DNA from: Escherichia coli
GTDB taxonomy: Bacteria; Pseudomonadota; Gammaproteobacteria; Enterobacterales; Enterobacteriaceae
Direction: 5' to 3' (one strand)
Assembly: GCF_013315695.1 (NCBI RefSeq)
Contig: NZ_CP054353.1
DNA: 64,000 nucleotides
Each line of letters begins with the position of its first letter. Positions within the stretch are counted from its first letter, which is position 1. Both the position numbers and the translations under genes were made by a program. Shown here one piece after another: positions 32,818-38,282 of the stretch. Below the pieces are notes generated by a model that was not told where the DNA came from, made no database searches, and was given only the letters and a program-made list of their open reading frames with translations.

Positions 32818-33367
32818 GCATCATTGGAAAGTGGAAAAACAGCCTGAGTGGTACGTGAAAGCTGTCAGAAAAACTATCGCGGCGTTGCCGGGGGGTTACG
32901 CTGAAGCTGCTGAGTGGCTGGATGTAACAGAGAACGCATTATTCAACCGCCTTCGTGCAGATGGCGATCAGATTTTCCCGCTGGGATGGGCAATGGTTTT
33001 ACAGCGTGCGGCTGGCACTCACTACATTGCGGATGCTGTCGCACAGTCTGCTGGTGGGGTGTTCGTATCGCTTCCTGAAATTGAGGCAGTAGAGAACGCC
33101 GATATAAACCAGCGCCTGCTGGAAGTCATTGAACAGATCGGCAGTTATTCCAGACAGATTCGTTCAGCAATCGAAGACGGTGTAGTGGAACCGCATGAGA
33201 AGACAGCAATTAACGACGAACTGTATCTTTCAATTTCGAAGCTCCAGGAGCATGCAGCACTGGTCTACAAAATCTTCTGCGCTCCAGAAAAGAGTAACGC
33301 CCGCGAGTGTGCAGCTCCGGGCGTCGTGGCGTCGATTGCTTCTGGTTGTGGAGAAACTAACGCATGA
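32810..33367 (+). CDS. hypothetical regulator in the cII position (possibly YmfL-like)
   Basis: 185-aa ORF overlapping the cro stop and the next start. Confidence 0.4.
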   Translation: MGKHHWKVEKQPEWYVKAVRKTIAALPGGYAEAAEWLDVTENALFNRLRADGDQIFPLGWAMVLQRAAGTHYIADAVAQSAGGVFVSLPEIEAVENADINQRLLEVIEQIGSYSRQIRSAIEDGVVEPHEKTAINDELYLSISKLQEHAALVYKIFCAPEKSNARECAAPGVVASIASGCGETNA

Positions 33368-34509
33368 ATAGTTTAACGGCAAATAACCGTTTGTCGCAAC
33401 AGCTGGTGGTCAGCGTCGCTGAACACCTGTTGTTACGGCATGAATGCAGATTACCAAATCACCTGGCTGTAAGTAACCACAGAGAACTTTACCTGACTGT
33501 GGGGGGCGAGTTGTGCAGGAACTTAACCGCTGGTTTCGTGACGGAAGAGGGCTTTATGTCCATGTTATTCGTTGGGAGCCAGAAACACAGCGCGTTATCT
33601 ATCTTCGCAAAGACTACCCGCATGAGTGCTTTAGTCCTTTGTGGAAATTCAGGCGTGATTTTGTTGAGTGTGAAGGACCACCAGCATATTGATTCTGCAA
33701 TTCCGGGACGTTACACTGTTCAGGCACCTTATAAAGCGGGTGCCGGGATTGGCGTCCTGAAATTCGCACATGCGCATAACCGCGCTTCAGCGGTTTTTTT
33801 GCGCACGTTTCCTCACATCCAAATTATGGTGGGGCGTGCAGGGGCATCGAAAGATGCGCCGGGGTCATGTGCGACCGGTTACGCCAACCCTGTACGTCTC
33901 ACCACCTCTGTGATTGGCGTCCCATGTGGTGAGTTTTCAAAATTCGCACATGAGGATGTCACTATGGCAACCACCCCTACCCAAACTCACCCTAAAATTG
34001 ATGTTATCCATGGGAAGGCTGTTACCTCTTCTTTGGCCGTTGCCGAATATTTCTGCAAGCAGCACAAAAACGTTATTCAAAAAATCCAGACGCTTGAGTG
34101 CTCTGTTGAATTCACTGAGCTGAATTTTCAGCCCAGTGATTACACCGATTGCACAGGCCGCAAACTCCCTTGTTACCAAATCACCCGCGACGGTTTTGCG
34201 TTTCTTGCCATGGGCTTCACGGGGAAACGTGCTGCCCGGTTCAAAGAGGCATACATCAATGCCTTTAACCAGATGGAGAAACAGCTTTCAAATCCCTCTG
34301 TACTGAGCGACGTTGCACATAACGCCAGCGTTCTCTATTCCTACATTTCATCAATTCATCAGGTCTGGCTGCAGCAGCTTTATCCTATGTTGGCAAAAGC
34401 CGAATCTCCGCTGGCTGTTAGCTTGTATGACTATATTAATGATGCTTCGGCGCTGGCCTGCCTCATAAATTTGTCGCTGAATCCTTCAGAGGTAAGGGGG
34501 CGTAAATGA
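33364..34509 (+). CDS. Rha-family phage regulatory protein, copy 1 (variable N-terminal region plus Rha domain)
   Basis: C-terminal ITRDGFAFLAMGFTGKRAARFKEAYINAFNQME matches the Rha-domain signature as I recall it; possible internal start near 33965 (MATTPTQ...). Confidence 0.65.
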   Translation: MNSLTANNRLSQQLVVSVAEHLLLRHECRLPNHLAVSNHRELYLTVGGELCRNLTAGFVTEEGFMSMLFVGSQKHSALSIFAKTTRMSALVLCGNSGVILLSVKDHQHIDSAIPGRYTVQAPYKAGAGIGVLKFAHAHNRASAVFLRTFPHIQIMVGRAGASKDAPGSCATGYANPVRLTTSVIGVPCGEFSKFAHEDVTMATTPTQTHPKIDVIHGKAVTSSLAVAEYFCKQHKNVIQKIQTLECSVEFTELNFQPSDYTDCTGRKLPCYQITRDGFAFLAMGFTGKRAARFKEAYINAFNQMEKQLSNPSVLSDVAHNASVLYSYISSIHQVWLQQLYPMLAKAESPLAVSLYDYINDASALACLINLSLNPSEVRGRK

Positions 34510-35387
34510 TCCGGAATATTTTCAAACTGTTTACCAATCGCCACCAGCATATTGATTCTGCAATTCCGGGACGTTACACTGTTCAGGCACCTTATAAAGC
34601 GGGTGCCGGGATTGGCGTCCTGAAATTGTCAACGGCGATGTATGACGCGCCAGCGTCTTTTTTATCGTCCGCATTTGCTCACATCCAGATTATGGTGGGC
34701 TGGGCGGGGGCACCGAAAGGTGCGCCGGTCTCCGTTGACGCCGGTTACGCCAACCCCGTCCAGTTCACCACCAGTGAAATTGGCGTTTCCGGTGGTGGAA
34801 GTTTTTCACTGTCAACGGAGGCTGCCATCATGGCTACGATCCCAGCCCTCACTCAACCTGAAATCACCATTGACAACGGCCAGGCCGTTACCACTTCTTT
34901 GGCTGTTGCCAACTTCTTCTCCAAGCGTCACGACGATGTGCTGAAAAAGATCCGCACTCTGGATTGTTCCCCTGAGTTTTGTGCCCGCAATTTTGCGGAG
35001 ACATCGATTTCGGTAAATCAACCGAACGGTGGTACACGCAAGCTCCTTTGCTATCAAATCACACGAGACGGTTTTGCGTTTCTTGCTATGGGTTTCACGG
35101 GTAAACGTGCTGCCCGGTTCAAAGAGGCATACATCAATGCCTTTAACCAGATGGAAAAACTGCTTTCAAAGCCATCCACGCTGAGCGATGCCGCAGATAA
35201 CGCCAGCGTGCTTTACTCCCACCTGTCGGTAATCCACAAGGTCTGGCTGCAGCAGCTTTATCCCATGTTGGCAAAAGCCGAATCCCCGCTGGCTGTAAGT
35301 CTGTATGACCGCATCAACGACGCGGCGCTACTGGCCAGTCTCATAAATTTGTCGCTGAACCCTTCAGAGGTAAGGGGGCGTAAATGA
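34506..35387 (+). CDS. Rha-family phage regulatory protein, copy 2 (tandem paralogue)
   Basis: 293-aa ORF; same Rha C-terminal motif; N-terminus MIRNIFKLFTNRHQHIDSAIPGRY repeats a segment inside copy 1. Confidence 0.65.
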   Translation: MIRNIFKLFTNRHQHIDSAIPGRYTVQAPYKAGAGIGVLKLSTAMYDAPASFLSSAFAHIQIMVGWAGAPKGAPVSVDAGYANPVQFTTSEIGVSGGGSFSLSTEAAIMATIPALTQPEITIDNGQAVTTSLAVANFFSKRHDDVLKKIRTLDCSPEFCARNFAETSISVNQPNGGTRKLLCYQITRDGFAFLAMGFTGKRAARFKEAYINAFNQMEKLLSKPSTLSDAADNASVLYSHLSVIHKVWLQQLYPMLAKAESPLAVSLYDRINDAALLASLINLSLNPSEVRGRK

Positions 35388-35608
35388 TCCGGAATATTTT
35401 CAAACGGTTTACCAATCATACTTTCCGTTGTCCTCGTCCGGGTCAGTGGTACACCACGCCTGCAGGGCATGTTCTACGTGTTAGCCTGGTTGACCGTGAA
35501 TGTCAGAAGGTGATTTGTGAACCGCTGGGCCGTAATTACCGCGTCAGTATGCCGCTTATAGCCTTTCGCTCCGGAAAAAACATGAAGCATCTCGGAGGTG
35601 CTGCATGA
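35384..35608 (+). CDS. small protein sharing the repeat-derived N-terminus
   Basis: 74-aa ORF starting MIRNIFKRFTN, the same N-terminal motif as Rha copy 2. Confidence 0.35.
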   Translation: MIRNIFKRFTNHTFRCPRPGQWYTTPAGHVLRVSLVDRECQKVICEPLGRNYRVSMPLIAFRSGKNMKHLGGAA

Positions 35609-36423
35609 GTATGGAGTTGATGGTTAAAGCGATGAAAATTCGAGTGGGAAATCCATTGCGAAAACTGGTTCTGATTAAGCTGGCTGATAATGCCAGCGAT
35701 CAGGGTGAGTGCTGGCCCAGCTACCAGCATATTGCTGACCAGTGCGAGATTAGCAAACGTTCTGTGATGAATCATATTGCGGCCCTTTGTGAGTCCGGGC
35801 TGGTAAAAAAAGTCACCCGGAAAGGTGAAAAAGGTAACTCAAGTAATATCTATCTCCTTCATCTTGATGGTGCAGGAGATTCACTAGGGGGTAGTGCAAA
35901 TAATTCACTATCTGGTGCAGCAAATTCACCAGGTAGTGCAGGAGTTGCACCAGGGGGTAGTGCAGGAGATTCACCCAGAACCAGTCACTCTTTTGAACCA
36001 GTCAAAGAACCAGTCAATGAACCAATAGCTGTTGGTGCATCTGCTGATGAGTCTGTGCGAGTTCGTTCAAACCGACCGGAATACTCTCCGGAGTTTGAGC
36101 AGGCATGGCTGGCCTATCCAAAACGTGCTGGTGGCAATTCAAAATCTGCAGCCTTCAAAGCCTGGAAAGCCCGTTTGAATGAGGGGGTAAACCCCGAAAC
36201 CATGCTGGAAGGTGTGAAACGCTACGCGGGCTGGGTATCTGCGATGGGTAACAGCGGCACACAATTTGTGAAACAGGCTGTCACGTTCTTTGGCCCGGAT
36301 CGTCATTTCGAAGAATCCTGGGAAGTTCCTGCGGTATCTGCAGTCAGACGCGAGGACCCGTACTTCAAAGCCAGTTACGACAACGTGGACTACAGCCAGA
36401 TCCCGGAAGGATTCAGGGGGTGA
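35605..36423 (+). CDS. replication initiation protein (O-like, N-terminal HTH)
   Basis: 272-aa ORF in the O position; N-terminal HTH-like segment; internal DNA iterons at 35868-35976. Confidence 0.6.
   Translation: MSMELMVKAMKIRVGNPLRKLVLIKLADNASDQGECWPSYQHIADQCEISKRSVMNHIAALCESGLVKKVTRKGEKGNSSNIYLLHLDGAGDSLGGSANNSLSGAANSPGSAGVAPGGSAGDSPRTSHSFEPVKEPVNEPIAVGASADESVRVRSNRPEYSPEFEQAWLAYPKRAGGNSKSAAFKAWKARLNEGVNPETMLEGVKRYAGWVSAMGNSGTQFVKQAVTFFGPDRHFEESWEVPAVSAVRREDPYFKASYDNVDYSQIPEGFRG
35868..35976. repeat. iteron-like direct repeats (candidate replication origin) inside the O-like gene
   Basis: About five imperfect ~20-bp repeats of the form GGTAGTGCA(GGAG/AAAT)..TTCAC encoding a low-complexity G/S/A linker. 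Confidence 0.5.
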
Positions 36424-36914
36424 TCATGAGTCTTTTGAATGAAGTTCAGAAATTCATTGAAGCCCATCCGGGCTGTACTTCCGGAGACATTGCGGATGCT
36501 TTTGCTGGTTACTCACGGCAGCGCGTTCTGCAGTCAGCAAGCAAGTTACGTCAGAGTGGGCGTGTGGCTCACCGTTGTGAAGGAGATACACGCAGACATT
36601 TCCCACGCCTGACTGAGAGAGCGCAGGATCCGGAACCACAACCAGTTCGTGAAACCAGACCTGTGCGCAATTTCTATGTCGGCACTAACGATCCCCGTGT
36701 GATTTTGTGCCTGACCCGCCAGGCTGAAGAACTGGAGTCCAGGGGCTTATACCGTCGTGCTGCAACGGTGTGGATGGCGGCATTCCGTGAAAGCCACTCC
36801 CAGCCAGAACGAAACAATTTTCTGGCACGTCGTGAGCGGTGCTTACGGAAAAGCAGCAAGCGCGCTGCATCGGGTGAAGAGTGGTATCTGTCAGGGAATT
36901 TCGTGGGGGCTTAA
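36420..36914 (+). CDS. hypothetical protein (replication-module position)
   Basis: 164-aa basic ORF translationally coupled to both neighbours. Confidence 0.4.
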   Translation: MIMSLLNEVQKFIEAHPGCTSGDIADAFAGYSRQRVLQSASKLRQSGRVAHRCEGDTRRHFPRLTERAQDPEPQPVRETRPVRNFYVGTNDPRVILCLTRQAEELESRGLYRRAATVWMAAFRESHSQPERNNFLARRERCLRKSSKRAASGEEWYLSGNFVGA

Positions 36915-37567
36915 TGAGTAATAAATATTGCCAGGCGCTGGTGGAACTGCGGAACAAACCAGCCCATGAACTGAAGGAAGTGGGCGATCAGTGGCGCACG
37001 CCGGACAACATTTTCTGGGGAATTAACACCCTGTTTGGCCCGTTTGTTCTGGATCTGTTCACTGACGGTGATAACGCCAAATGTGCTGCGTATTACACTG
37101 CGGAAGACAACGCGCTGGCGCATGACTGGTCTGAACGTCTTGCGGAGCTTAAAGGTGCTGCCTTTGGTAATCCCCCGTACAGCCGCGCCAGTCAGCATGA
37201 GGGGCAATACATCACCGGCATGCGTTACATCATGAAACATGCCAGTGCCATGCGTGATAAAGGCGGGCGCTATGTTTTCCTGATCAAAGCTGCCACCAGC
37301 GAAGTGTGGTGGCCGGAAGATGCAGATCATATTGCTTTTATTCGCGGGCGTATTGGTTTTGAACTGCCTGCCTGGTTTATCCCGAAAGACGAAAAGCAGG
37401 TGCCAACAGGTGCTTTCTTCGCTGGTGCTATTGCTGTTTTCGACAAGACCTGGAAGGGACCGGCAATCAGCTACATAGGGCGCGATGAACTTGAGGCATG
37501 TGGTGAGGCGTTTCTGGCGCAGGTTCGCCAGCAGGCGGAAAAACTGGTCAGGGAGATGGCGGCATGA
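36914..37567 (+). CDS. phage DNA N6-adenine methyltransferase (Dam-like)
   Basis: ORF 36881..37567; likely start MSNKYCQ at 36914; NPPY catalytic motif (AFGNPPYS). Confidence 0.7.
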   Translation: MSNKYCQALVELRNKPAHELKEVGDQWRTPDNIFWGINTLFGPFVLDLFTDGDNAKCAAYYTAEDNALAHDWSERLAELKGAAFGNPPYSRASQHEGQYITGMRYIMKHASAMRDKGGRYVFLIKAATSEVWWPEDADHIAFIRGRIGFELPAWFIPKDEKQVPTGAFFAGAIAVFDKTWKGPAISYIGRDELEACGEAFLAQVRQQAEKLVREMAA

Positions 37568-37890
37568 CGACGTTAACTCAATGCCAGCAGCAGGTGCTGG
37601 ATATGCTGATTTCTTATCAGAAAGAACGTGGCTTCCCGCCAACCAATCAGGAGGTGGCAACCATGCTGGGATACCGTTCGGTGAATGCAGCGGTGGAGCA
37701 TCTTCGCGCACTGGAGAAAAAAGGCGTCATCACGATAAAGCGTGGCGTGGCCCGGGGGATAACGCTTCATACTGCGATGAAGGACGACGACAGCGAGGCG
37801 GTCGGGATTATCCGCGCACTGCTTGCCGGTGAGGAAAACGCAAGGCTGCGTGCAACCCACTGGTTACATGAGAGGGGCCTGAAAGTATGA
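37564..37890 (+). CDS. LexA N-terminal DNA-binding-domain-like protein
   Basis: 108-aa ORF, winged-HTH segment LTQCQQQVLDMLISYQKERGFPPTNQEVATMLGYRSVNAAVEHLRALEKKGVI resembling the LexA DNA-binding domain; no peptidase domain. Confidence 0.55.
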   Translation: MTTLTQCQQQVLDMLISYQKERGFPPTNQEVATMLGYRSVNAAVEHLRALEKKGVITIKRGVARGITLHTAMKDDDSEAVGIIRALLAGEENARLRATHWLHERGLKV

Positions 37891-38282
37891 AGCTAATACT
37901 GCCTTTTCCGCCCAGCGTGAACACGTACTGGCGACACCCCAACAAAGGGGCGTTTGCTGGTAAGAGCCTGATAAGCGCGGCGGGGCGAAAATTCCAGAGC
38001 GCGGCGTGTGCAGCAATAGTTGAGCAGTTACGTCGTCTGCCGAAACCAACGTCGGCACCTGCTTCAGTGGAGATCGTGTTGTTTCCTCCGGATAACCGGA
38101 TCCGCGATCTGGACAACTATAACAAGGCGCTGTTTGACGCCCTGACCCACGCGGGTGTGTGGGAAGACGACAGTCAGGTGAAAAGAATGCTGGTGGAGTG
38201 GGGACCGGTTATCCCGGAGGGGAAGGTCGAGATCACTATCAGTAAGTACGAAAAAGCGAGTTGCAAATTAGCAACTCGGTAA
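37887..38282 (+). CDS. rusA: RusA-family Holliday-junction resolvase
   Basis: 131-aa ORF MKLILPFPPSVNTYW...DLDNYNKALFDALTHAGVWEDDSQV, conserved RusA motifs. Confidence 0.8.
   Translation: MKLILPFPPSVNTYWRHPNKGAFAGKSLISAAGRKFQSAACAAIVEQLRRLPKPTSAPASVEIVLFPPDNRIRDLDNYNKALFDALTHAGVWEDDSQVKRMLVEWGPVIPEGKVEITISKYEKASCKLATR

What the first reader, a model, noticed from the sequence alone, without database searches (positions are those of the whole stretch)
35868..35976. Iteron-like direct repeats inside the O-like replication gene
About five imperfect ~20-bp repeats (GGTAGTGCAGGAG...TTCAC variants) encode a low-complexity G/S/A linker. This matches lambda, where ori sits inside O as iterons, and locates the likely origin.
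Basis: partly seen in the sequence, partly recalled or inferred. Interest (0 to 1): 0.35.

Follow-up and report, generated by a model that had tools for sequence, protein, structure and literature searches.

The report
Prophage replication origin inside initiator gene
The repeats are real and are most likely the binding sites of this E. coli prophage's replication origin, written into the coding sequence of its own initiator gene next to a short DNA element that related phages across the Gammaproteobacteria keep letter for letter; no experiment has tested this.

Summary
Observation confirmed. Five 21-24-bp units lie at 35868-35976. Each holds a 15-bp imperfect palindrome, GTGCA-N5-T(T/G)CAC. 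They sit in the linker of a 272-aa replication initiator (35605-36423) with an N-terminal HTH_36 winged helix (phrog_270); it is not a lambda-O (Phage_rep_O) homologue.

About 200 related loci share the layout: winged helix, then 3-8 palindromic repeats, then the CR, then one of at least 13 unrelated C-terminal modules.
- Repeat sequence differs between groups and tracks the recognition helix.
- In 34 of 55 genes the repeats are read in two reading frames.
- CR codons are invariant (top-codon fraction 0.99, against 0.54 for invariant N-terminal residues).
- The 9-mer occurs in all three reading frames.

So selection acts on the DNA, not on the peptide.

In relatives the next gene encodes a lambda-P-like, DnaC-like, DnaB-like or primase-helicase protein. 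In the window none follows.

Best reading (0.75): a lambda-style origin, with initiator dimers on the repeats and opening or helicase entry at the CR. Binding and origin activity are inferred, not shown. New member of a known kind; the CR looks undescribed.

The parts
35605..36423 (+). Replication initiator gene (272 aa plus stop): N-terminal winged helix, iteron-encoded linker, CR, C-terminal module
   Evidence: ORF. Pfam HTH_36 at aa 17-67, E=1.8e-11. phrog_270 'replication initiation protein', E=3e-88. About 98% identical to the replication genes of phages cdtI, mEp460, 1720a-02 and Stx2c phages.
35605..35868 (+). Coding region of the winged-helix DNA-binding domain (aa 1-88)
   Evidence: AlphaFold2 model, pLDDT 90.8: helices 3-11, 17-29, 40-47 and 51-64, wing strands 67-73 and 79-85. 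Foldseek matches generic winged-helix proteins (ArsR-, MarR- and PerR-type regulators, TFE/TFIIE, DnaD N-terminal domain), TM about 0.6. By sequence the nearest solved structure is the DnaD N-terminal domain 2vn2, E=0.011.
35755..35796 (+). Codons of the predicted recognition helix (aa 51-64, KRSVMNHIAALCES)
   Evidence: Helix 51-64 in the model. Residues 53-57 track the iteron half-site type across relatives.
35868..35976 (.). Iteron array: five 21-24-bp units. Cores GTGCA-N5-T(T/G)CAC at 35870-84, 35894-908, 35915-29, 35936-50 and 35960-74. Half-sites alternate in orientation about every 11-12 bp.
   Evidence: Family-wide palindrome excess of 5.19 against 0.72 per linker. Spacing 21-24 bp, and a 4-nt gap to the CR in 53 of 55 genes.
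35977..36027 (.). Conserved region (CR): AGAACCAGTCACTCTTTTGAACCAGTCAAAGAACCAGTCAATGAACCAATA. It has three exact AACCAGTCA 9-mers (35979-87, 35996-36004, 36008-16) and a degenerate fourth (36020-28). Proposed site of duplex opening or helicase entry.
   Evidence: It is 90-98% identical in Vibrio, Klebsiella, Stenotrophomonas, Pseudomonas, Pectobacterium and Aggregatibacter phages. Codons are invariant. The 9-mer is used in all three reading frames. It is the GC minimum of the surrounding +/-400 nt across 78 loci.
36028..36420 (+). C-terminal module (aa 142-272), one of at least 13 interchangeable modules; proposed to recruit the host replication machinery
   Evidence: PHROG families named 'replication protein', 'DnaD-like helicase loader' and 'primosomal protein'. 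Nothing in Pfam, NCBIfam or the PDB.

Best explanation
The 109-bp repeat array (35868-35976) together with the adjoining 51-bp AACCAGTCA array (35977-36027) is the replication origin of this lambdoid E. coli prophage. It is embedded in the linker-coding part of the initiator gene, as ori-lambda is embedded in O.

Proposed mechanism:
1. The gene is transcribed in the early rightward operon (inferred from gene order).
2. Dimers of the protein's winged-helix N-terminal domain bind the five dyad-symmetric units, which are phased two helical turns apart, and form an O-some-like complex (inferred).
3. Four base pairs beyond the last unit lies the family-invariant, lower-GC, strand-asymmetric 9-mer array. 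The duplex is opened there or the helicase is delivered there, perhaps with the initiator's invariant N-terminal surface holding one strand (inferred, least certain step).
4. The C-terminal module recruits the helicase system. In relatives each alternative module is paired with its own downstream partner gene. In the window no partner gene follows, so host DnaB and its loader would be used (inferred).

Shown here: the repeats, their dyad symmetry, their phasing, DNA-level selection on both arrays, association of repeat type with the recognition helix, and the modular gene neighbourhoods.

Not shown here: binding, unwinding, and origin activity.
For: Initiator identity:
- HTH_36 and phrog_270 matches.
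- In relatives the next gene is lambda-P-like (E=1.7e-58 and 1.9e-48), DnaC/IstB-like, DnaB-like (E=4.5e-71) or, in phi24B, a primase-helicase.

Repeats act as DNA, not as peptide:
- In 34 of 55 genes with this core class the cores are read in two reading frames.
- Spacings of 22 and 23 bp are common.

Repeats look like binding sites for a dimer:
- Perfect palindromes number 5.19 per linker against 0.72 in shuffles, and 139 of 144 linkers have at least one.
- Half-site position 5 covaries with its mirror position 11.
- Spacing is 21-24 bp.

Specificity pairing between helix residues 53-57 and the half-site:
- SVMNH with GTGCA/GTGAA
- TAMRH, SVMRH and SAMRH with GTGAC
- AVRxH with (A/G)TGCCA
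- TVR(K/R)H with TGTAGGC
- xVKxH with GGGCAG
- TAIxH with GTGTAA
- L123 and L034 share a C-terminus but differ in both helix and iterons.

CR is under DNA-level selection:
- Top-codon fraction is 0.99 and codon entropy 0.05 bit. For 32 conserved N-terminal residues the values are 0.54 and 1.43 bit. Gene GC3 ranges from 0.34 to 0.73.
- The 9-mer is read as (R)TS(H), as (E)PV and as NQS.
- 111 of the 116 copies in 663 kb of sequence (both strands counted) lie at this position, against 2.5 expected anywhere.
- Its distance from the last iteron is fixed at 4 nt in 53 of 55 genes.
- It is the GC minimum, 0.37-0.39 against about 0.52 overall, and 0.39-0.45 against 0.55-0.67 in high-GC hosts.

Experimental precedents for 'variable iterons plus an adjacent family-conserved segment, both needed in cis': ori-lambda (PMC7466680, PMC5043065) and the pHW126/pIGRK plasmids (PMC6854812).
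Against: - No experiment on any member of this family was found. A 2022 survey states there is no knowledge of the replication proteins of the 'Eru' Stx phages, several types of which carry HTH_36 proteins (PMC8951638).
- In the window the CR is only mildly AT-rich (42% GC), unlike lambda's roughly 40-bp A+T tract.
- No DnaA-box or IHF consensus lies nearby.
- Helix and iterons are only about 100 bp apart, so their association could partly reflect co-inheritance.
- The covariation statistics are not corrected for phylogeny.
- 9-mer spacing varies (12, 15 and 17 nt), which fits a rigid double-stranded DNA-binding array poorly.
- The window has no helicase or loader gene, so the last step is a guess.
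Confidence: 0.75

Rival explanations
1. The repeats bind the initiator but do not fire replication. They would act as an autoregulatory, titration or exclusion element, for example blocking transcription of the gene's own C-terminal half, copy control by handcuffing, or inhibition of competing phages. The true origin would lie elsewhere.
For: All the DNA-level and dyad-symmetry evidence shows a protein-binding array, not firing as such. Lambda ori fragments on plasmids are known to inhibit homologous phages (PMC3349717, abstract seen). In pIGRK the iterons also regulate the rep promoter (PMC6854812). The window has no strongly AT-rich tract next to the repeats.
Against: No other repeat cluster or candidate origin was seen in the replication module. 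The array keeps a fixed 4-nt distance to an invariant, low-GC element, which is typical origin anatomy. The arrangement matches experimentally proven origins (lambda, pHW126 family). The two roles are not exclusive.
Confidence: 0.12
2. The conserved AACCAGTCA segment is conserved mainly because it is a module boundary. It would be a shared stretch of homology at which phages recombine to swap C-terminal modules, or a recently spread piece of DNA, and not a working part of the origin.
For: The CR lies exactly at the junction between the conserved N-terminal half and at least 13 unrelated C-terminal modules. L123 and L034 share a C-terminus but not the helix or iterons. Unit number varies among close relatives.
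Against: The 9-mers persist with different spacers (8, 6 and 3 nt) and in all three reading frames in lineages from Pasteurellaceae to Shewanella and Pseudomonas. Codons are frozen while flanking synonymous sites are saturated. That points to long-term purifying selection, not recent spread. Recombination at the CR may be a consequence of its conservation.
Confidence: 0.1
3. The repeats are only a flexible low-complexity protein linker that grew by replication slippage, with no function as DNA.
For: They encode a G/S/A/P-rich stretch between two domains. Copy number varies among close relatives: 5 or 6 iterons and 2-5 twelve-mers.
Against: The same DNA cores are read in two frames within one gene in 34 of 55 genes. 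The 9-mer is read in three frames. Synonymous sites are frozen. Palindromes are about 7-fold in excess. Repeat type tracks the recognition helix.
Confidence: 0.03
4. The palindromes act as hairpins in the mRNA or in single-stranded DNA, for example for translational pausing or as a priming signal, and not as double-stranded binding sites.
For: Many short inverted repeats are present. Rfam gives one weak chance-level hairpin match, mir-875 at 22 bits against a gathering score of 84.
Against: RNA folding of 35860-36030 is no better than shuffles: z = -0.87, and 35 of 200 shuffles fold at least as well. At core positions 4 and 12 the half-site variants C/A and G/T combine freely (A with G 22 and A with T 33; C with G 18 and C with T 23), so mismatched 'stems' are as common as matched ones and G-T combinations are rare.
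Confidence: 0.03

Closest known systems
[quoted passage not shown]
   Same: The origin lies in the middle of the initiator gene, in the linker between a DNA-binding N-terminal domain and a C-terminal domain that recruits the helicase. There are several roughly 20-bp iterons with internal inverted symmetry that bind initiator dimers. An adjacent segment is where the duplex opens. The gene sits in the early rightward operon after cII (PMC7466680, PMC5043065). Some relatives of the window gene are even followed by a lambda-P homologue.
   Different: The initiator is not a Phage_rep_O protein. The window has five iterons of unrelated sequence. Instead of a roughly 40-bp strongly A+T-rich tract there is a mildly low-GC array of AACCAGTCA 9-mers that is invariant across the family. 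No P-like gene follows in the window. Nothing has been tested experimentally.
Origins of pHW126-family plasmids (pHW126, pIGRK, pIGMS31)
   Same: The minimal origin is a roughly 20-bp region conserved in all family members ('CR') plus four 20-bp iteron-like repeats separated by 2-nt spacers. Both are needed in cis, and both are bound by a winged-helix Rep that forms dimers (PMC6854812; bioRxiv 10.1101/2022.12.05.519187).
   Different: Those are small plasmids whose origin lies outside the rep gene. They are proposed to use rolling-circle or mixed replication, and RepM has nuclease activity. A blastn search of the plasmid collection with the window's CR found only 16 records, none a small pHW126-size plasmid; most were 33-54 kb or much larger records, and where a gene was annotated under the match it was 'helix-turn-helix domain-containing protein'.
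Iteron plasmids (RK2, R6K, F, P1, pPS10) and oriC: iterons or DnaA boxes plus an unwinding element made of repeated 13-mers
   Same: An array of phased initiator sites sits next to an unwinding element built from short direct repeats whose exact sequence matters. Initiators can also bind one strand of that element (PMC5043065).
   Different: Plasmid iterons are direct repeats bound by Rep monomers, whereas here each unit is a palindrome, as in lambda. No Rep_3-type Rep was found and no DnaA boxes lie nearby. Here the origin is inside coding sequence.
DnaD / phage 'replisome organizer' proteins
   Same: The N-terminal winged helix is the nearest solved relative by sequence (2vn2, E=0.011; Pfam DnaD_N E=3.6e-5, below its cut-off). 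PHROG names for the C-terminal module include 'DnaD-like helicase loader'.
   Different: The similarity is marginal. DnaD is not a sequence-specific origin binder with its own iterons. The family here is gammaproteobacterial.

Membership tests
Lambda-type origin (origin embedded in the initiator gene) | Three or more roughly 20-bp direct repeats, each with internal dyad symmetry, inside the linker-coding part of the initiator gene | tested here: met
   Five units at 35868-35976 with cores GTGCA-N5-T(T/G)CAC. The same layout is found in 139 of 144 related linkers.
Lambda-type origin (origin embedded in the initiator gene) | A+T-rich unwinding region directly beside the iterons | tested here: inconclusive
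   The window's CR is 42.5% GC against about 50% around it, with no strongly AT-rich block. Across 78 loci the 40 bp after the iterons are the GC minimum, 0.37-0.39. Unwinding itself was not testable.
Lambda-type origin (origin embedded in the initiator gene) | Initiator belongs to the lambda O family (Pfam Phage_rep_O, PF04492) | tested here: not met
   Pfam finds HTH_36 (E=1.8e-11) and weak DnaD_N. Phage_rep_O does not appear at E<=0.01.
Lambda-type origin (origin embedded in the initiator gene) | A helicase-loader gene (P) immediately downstream | tested here: not met
   In the window the next gene is PerC/yfdN-like, followed by Dam, a LexA-domain protein and RusA. Relatives with other C-terminal modules do have lambda-P-like, DnaC-like, DnaB-like or primase-helicase genes there.
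Lambda-type origin (origin embedded in the initiator gene) | Initiator binds the iterons, and the segment supports initiator-dependent replication | not testable with these tools
   This needs EMSA or footprinting, a two-plasmid origin assay, or marker-frequency analysis.
HTH_36 / phrog_270 phage replication initiators | N-terminal HTH_36 winged helix above Pfam's gathering score, and a full-length match to the PHROG profile | tested here: met
   HTH_36 scores 44.1 bits against a cut-off of 25. phrog_270 matches aa 3-271 at E=3.3e-88. The AlphaFold2 model is a winged helix with pLDDT 90.8.
Iteron-plasmid origins (Rep_3-type Rep, direct iterons, DnaA boxes) | Rep_3-type Rep protein and DnaA boxes at the origin | tested here: not met
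   No Rep_3 hit. The nearest TTWTNCACA match is more than 10 kb away.
pHW126-like plasmid origins (CR plus four iterons) | Sequence similarity of the conserved region, and a small-plasmid context | tested here: not met
   A plasmid blastn search with the window's CR found 16 records: most were 33-54 kb and several were far larger. None was a small pHW126-size plasmid. The resemblance is in architecture only. The pHW126 CR sequence itself was not available in the text read.

The most novel reading that the evidence does not exclude
The AACCAGTCA array is a previously undescribed, initiator-family-specific core of the origin. It would be a fixed 'chassis' element, either the site of strand opening and helicase entry or a second site recognised by the invariant first 48 residues of the initiator. 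Gammaproteobacterial prophages keep it letter for letter, in any reading frame. Around it they swap a specificity cassette (recognition helix plus matching iterons) on one side and a helicase-recruitment cassette (C-terminal module plus partner gene) on the other. In that reading, part of this coding sequence is dictated by the DNA's job and the peptide merely tolerates it.
Probability: 0.55. Interest if true: 0.65.

Novelty: new member of a known kind. Interest (0 to 1): 0.5.

Why it matters
- **Likely origin for a large, unstudied group.** It gives a probable origin, at base-pair resolution, for prophages from Enterobacteriaceae, Pseudomonas, Vibrio, Shewanella, Aeromonas and Pasteurellaceae. 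The group includes Shiga-toxin phages: phi24B, Min27, and the records that Fagerlund et al. list as the Eru5 and Eru6 types. Toxin production is reported to depend on phage replication (PMC7466680), and nothing is known about replication in the Eru types (PMC8951638).
- **A natural data set on DNA recognition.** The family offers many matched pairs of recognition helix and half-site for studying how a winged helix reads DNA.
- **An example of dual use of coding sequence.** A 'low-complexity linker' here is really a cis-acting DNA element. This matters for annotation, for codon-based selection tests and for recoding phage genomes.
- **A practical marker.** The invariant 9-mer array is a handy signature for finding this type of origin.

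Tried and rejected
- **Rfam** scan of 35300-36600 at E<=1 gave only a chance-level mir-875 match, 22 bits against a gathering score of 84.
- **RNA folding** of 35860-36030 gave z = -0.87, so there is no evidence for structure.
- **DnaA-box and IHF consensus scans** found nothing near the region.
- **Promoter and terminator scan** of 35200-36700 found no promoter-like site and one terminator-like site on the minus strand, at chance level.
- **Protein-based scan of viral contigs** returned only near-identical E. coli copies. It was useless for diversity, but was later used for population variation.
- **Plasmid search with the CR**, looking for a link to the pHW126 family, found none.
- **PDB and NCBIfam searches** of the C-terminal module found nothing usable.
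- **Full-text searches** for the motif (GAACCAGTCA, AACCAGTCACTC and their reverse complements) found only unrelated primers.
- **Literature searches** for an origin study of SfV, ST64B or HTH_36 phages found none.
- **Population diversity** among 60 distinct E. coli-type copies gave only a weak signal: mean pi was 0.006 in the CR, 0.011 in the iterons, 0.011 in the N-terminal domain and 0.024 in the C-terminal part. The recurrent iteron polymorphisms fall in spacers.
- **Reading frame labels:** the labels printed were swapped by my script. The correct assignment is i%3=1 for (E)PV (60 copies), i%3=2 for (R)TS(H) (48 copies) and i%3=0 for NQS (3 copies).
Full report
**1. The observation**

Reading 35500-36400 shows five units between 35868 and 35976. 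Their 15-bp cores are:
- GTGCAGGAGATTCAC (35870-35884)
- GTGCAAATAATTCAC (35894-35908)
- GTGCAGCAAATTCAC (35915-35929)
- GTGCAGGAGTTGCAC (35936-35950)
- GTGCAGGAGATTCAC (35960-35974)

Start-to-start spacing is 24, 21, 21 and 24 bp. Tandem Repeats Finder and the repeat finder both report them. The consensus 15-mer with up to 3 mismatches occurs 9 times in the window against 1.79 expected, and 0 of 100 shuffles reach 9. Four of the nine matches fall in this 109-bp stretch.

Each core is an imperfect palindrome (GTGCA..TGCAC). Half-sites of the form TAGTGCA / TGCACTA alternate in orientation along the array.

AACCAGTCA occurs at 35979, 35996 and 36008, with a degenerate copy at 36020. These are the only exact copies in the 64 kb.

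**2. The gene and its setting**

The repeats lie in ORF 35605-36423 (272 aa).
- Its N-terminus is an HTH_36 winged helix (Pfam E=1.8e-11).
- The whole protein matches phrog_270 'replication initiation protein' (E=3e-88).
- Pfam does not find lambda's Phage_rep_O family.

An AlphaFold2 model of residues 1-88 is confident (pLDDT 90.8). It shows a winged helix with a recognition helix at residues 51-64 and a beta-hairpin wing. Foldseek matches only generic winged-helix proteins: ArsR-, MarR- and PerR-type regulators, TFE/TFIIE winged helices, and the DnaD N-terminal domain. The nearest solved sequence is the DnaD N-terminal domain 2vn2, at E=0.011.

The gene lies after a cII-like gene and two Ash/Rha regulator genes. 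It is followed by a PerC (yfdN-like) gene, a phage Dam methylase, a LexA-domain protein and RusA. No helicase or helicase-loader gene follows.

The window is an E. coli prophage. The 2-kb segment is 100% identical in two complete E. coli genomes, and 468 genomes carry at least 80% of it. The gene is about 98% identical to the replication genes of phages cdtI, mEp460, 1720a-02 and Stx2c phages, and 88% identical to that of ST64B.

**3. Relatives share one architecture**

blastn showed that a segment of about 40-50 nt (35971-36020) is 90-97% identical in Vibrio, Klebsiella and Stenotrophomonas phages whose replication genes are otherwise far diverged.

I collected loci in two ways:
- **By the DNA motif.** A scan of viral contigs for AGAACCAGTCACTCTTTNGAACC found at least 120 contigs, giving 87 distinct sequence contexts.
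- **By protein only.** A scan of one genome per species used the N-terminal peptide patterns KLADNA[NS]D and MSMxLM[VA][KR]A. It gave 80 loci from Enterobacter, Pseudomonas, Marinomonas, Aeromonas, Shewanella, Xenorhabdus, Photorhabdus, Proteus, Providencia, Aliivibrio, Vibrio, Avibacterium, Haemophilus, Marinobacter, Microbulbifer and others.

Every complete gene has the same order of parts:
1. a conserved winged helix;
2. 3-8 palindromic repeats;
3. the AACCAGTCA segment (CR);
4. one of at least 13 unrelated C-terminal modules.

**4. The repeats behave as protein-binding DNA, not as a peptide repeat**

- Across 144 distinct linkers, perfect palindromes (arms of at least 5 nt, loop 1-7 nt) number 5.19 per linker against 0.72 in shuffles. 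139 of 144 linkers have at least one.
- Cores of the window's class are spaced 21, 22, 23 or 24 bp apart, which is two helical turns. Because 22 and 23 are not multiples of three, 34 of 55 genes read their cores in two different reading frames. For example, GTGCAGCAGATTCAC encodes VQQIH in one unit and part of SAAGS in the next.
- Repeat sequence differs between groups, with matching changes in both half-sites. Examples: GTGCAGgagCTGCAC, GGGGCAGgagCTGCCCC, GTGTAAaaaTTACAC, GTGAAAataTTTCAC, GTGACAaaaTGTCAC, GTGCCAccagaTGGCAC and GGTGTAGGCccacaGCCTACACC.
- Repeat type tracks residues 53-57 of the recognition helix:
  - SVMNH with GTGCA/GTGAA
  - AVRxH with (A/G)TGCCA
  - TVR(K/R)H with TGTAGGC
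  - xVKxH with GGGCAG
  - TAIxH with GTGTAA
- Arginine at position 56 goes with GTGAC in three different sequence backgrounds: L242 from Izhakiella, L267 from Microbulbifer, and Vibrio/Aliivibrio.
- L123 and L034 share a C-terminal module but differ in both helix and iterons.
- At core positions 5 and 11 the two half-sites covary. At positions 4 and 12 the variants mix freely. That fits tolerance by a protein rather than base pairing in a hairpin.
- RNA folding of the region is no better than shuffles, z = -0.87. Rfam finds nothing.

Caveat: the helix and the iterons are about 100 bp apart and are co-inherited. None of these statistics is corrected for phylogeny.

**5. The conserved region (CR) is conserved as DNA**

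All figures in this section come from the protein-selected set.
- 68 of 79 distinct genes carry at least one exact AACCAGTCA just after the iterons, and 42 carry two or more.
- 111 of the 116 copies in 663 kb of sequence (both strands counted) lie at that position, against 2.5 expected anywhere.
- In the 40 genes that read the CR in the usual frame, codon choice is frozen: AGA 40/40, AGT 40/40, TCT 40/40, GAA 40/40, GTC 40/40, CCA 39/40. The mean top-codon fraction is 0.99 and codon entropy 0.05 bit.
- For 32 conserved residues of the N-terminal domain in the same genes, the mean top-codon fraction is 0.54 and entropy 1.43 bit. Gene GC3 ranges from 0.34 to 0.73.
- The 9-mer is read in all three reading frames (the frame labels printed are swapped, see 'tried and rejected'):
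  - as (R)TS(H) and then (E)PV in most genes;
  - twice as (E)PV in Shewanella, where the spacer is 6 nt instead of 8;
  - twice as (R)TS in Aliivibrio;
  - as NQS in Pasteurellaceae.
- The gap between the last iteron and the first 9-mer is 4 nt in 53 of 55 genes.
- The 40 bp starting at the first 9-mer are the GC minimum of the surrounding 800 bp: 0.37-0.39 against about 0.52 overall, and 0.39-0.45 against 0.55-0.67 in high-GC hosts.
- In the window itself the dip is mild (42.5% GC) and the top strand is A- and C-rich.
- In the phage collection the CR occurs in 139 records. Wherever a gene is annotated under the match, it is named as a replication, primosomal, helix-turn-helix or DNA-binding protein, or in two records as a hypothetical protein or transcriptional regulator.
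- Every complete motif-selected gene has the MSMxLM-type N-terminus.

This near-exclusive pairing suggests that the CR's partner is the initiator itself rather than a general host factor. That is an inference.

**6. Modular back end**

The C-terminal regions fall into 13 clusters. The gene that follows depends on the cluster:
- lambda-P-like in clusters 2 and 5 (E=1.7e-58 and 1.9e-48);
- DnaC/IstB-like in clusters 1 and 7;
- DnaB-like helicase in cluster 3 (E=4.5e-71);
- a primase-helicase in phi24B;
- none in the window's cluster 0, whose C-terminal module matches PHROG families named 'replication protein', 'DnaD-like helicase loader' and 'primosomal protein'.

These neighbourhoods are what is expected if the gene is the origin-binding initiator that hands over to different helicase-delivery systems.

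**7. Most likely mechanism**

Dimers of the winged-helix domain bind the five phased palindromic units and bend or wrap the DNA. The adjoining invariant, lower-GC 9-mer array is where strands separate or the helicase enters, possibly with the initiator holding one strand. This is analogous to the reported binding of lambda O to single-stranded AT-rich origin DNA (PMC7466680) and to initiator binding of the repeated 13-mers in oriC and RK2 (PMC5043065). The C-terminal module then brings in the host helicase system.

Only the anatomy and the selection patterns are shown here. Binding, opening and firing are inferred.

**8. Comparison with what is known**

- **ori-lambda.** The logic is the same: the origin is in the middle of the initiator gene, the iterons have inverted symmetry and bind dimers, and an opening region lies beside them. 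Membership in the lambda O family fails on the protein family test.
- **pHW126/pIGRK/pIGMS31 plasmids.** The closest architectural parallel for 'family-conserved region plus four roughly 20-bp iterons, both required in cis and both bound by a winged-helix Rep' (PMC6854812; bioRxiv 10.1101/2022.12.05.519187). No sequence link was found.
- **This family.** I found no study of it. A 2022 survey of Stx phages notes HTH_36 proteins in the types Eru5, Eru6, Eru8, Eru11 and Eru13, and states that nothing is known about replication in Eru phages (PMC8951638). The type records of Eru5 and Eru6, and phages phi24B and Min27, carry the CR in their 'O' genes. Text searches for the motif returned only unrelated primers. 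Subscription-journal papers were not searchable, so an older description cannot be excluded.

**9. Verdict**

This is a new member of a known kind of origin, one that sits inside the initiator gene, in an unstudied initiator family. The family-wide AACCAGTCA array, frozen in sequence and readable in any frame, is the part that appears new and worth an experiment.

Noticed in passing
window 33364-35608: There are two tandem paralogous Ash+Rha regulator genes (33364-34509 and 34506-35387). Each junction restarts with the peptide MIRNIFK.., and a third, short ORF (35384-35608, 74 aa) begins the same way. This looks like a tandem duplication. In some E. coli genomes the segment matched in two pieces spanning about 840 bp more than the query (H50-H53).
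   Followed up: no
window 36577-36591 (+): An iteron-like 15-mer, GTGAAGGAGATACAC (2 mismatches to the consensus), lies inside the PerC/yfdN-like gene about 600 bp downstream of the array. By my estimate about 0.12 such matches are expected in 64 kb, so it may be chance or an outlying binding site.
   Followed up: no
window 35894-36028 (+) and 35813-35974 (-): Alternative-frame ORFs across the repeats are by-products of the palindromic repeats. In Pseudomonas relatives, however, some iterons really are translated in that other frame (VVQQIHQ), because unit spacing is 22-23 bp.
   Followed up: yes
L222 (Pseudomonas bharatica CSV86), gene start 2001: This copy of the initiator gene ends at a stop codon inside the CR (133 aa...HPEPVTLLNQ*). 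It is probably a frameshifted, decaying prophage copy or an assembly error.
   Followed up: no
window 37564-37890: A 108-aa protein consists only of a LexA DNA-binding domain (Pfam E=2.9e-19) with no peptidase domain. It lies between a phage Dam methylase (36881-37567) and RusA (37887-38282).
   Followed up: no
L137, L138, L164, L165, L187 (E. coli viral contigs) compared with window 35868-36027: Close relatives differ in copy number: 5 or 6 iterons, and 2, 3 (the window), 4 or 5 GAACCAGTCAWW units. The polymorphisms seen in more than one copy of the iteron array fall in the spacers between cores.
   Followed up: partly
L284 (phage phi24B, HM208303.1) 1201-1977; hits H98, H111, H118: The 'O' genes of Shiga-toxin phages phi24B and Min27, and of the type records for the Eru5 (Stx2a_F403) and Eru6 (Stx2a_WGPS2) replication regions, belong to this family and carry the CR. 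In phi24B, the one read here, there are three GGGGCAGGAGCTGCCC iterons before the CR, and the next gene is a Toprim plus gp4-type helicase.
   Followed up: partly
L001-L003, L026, L059, L063, L072, L282 (relatives): The same N-terminal domain, iterons and CR are joined to at least 13 unrelated C-terminal modules, each with its own downstream partner gene (lambda-P-like, DnaC-like or DnaB-like). The break point is exactly at the CR, which suggests the CR also serves as a recombination joint.
   Followed up: partly
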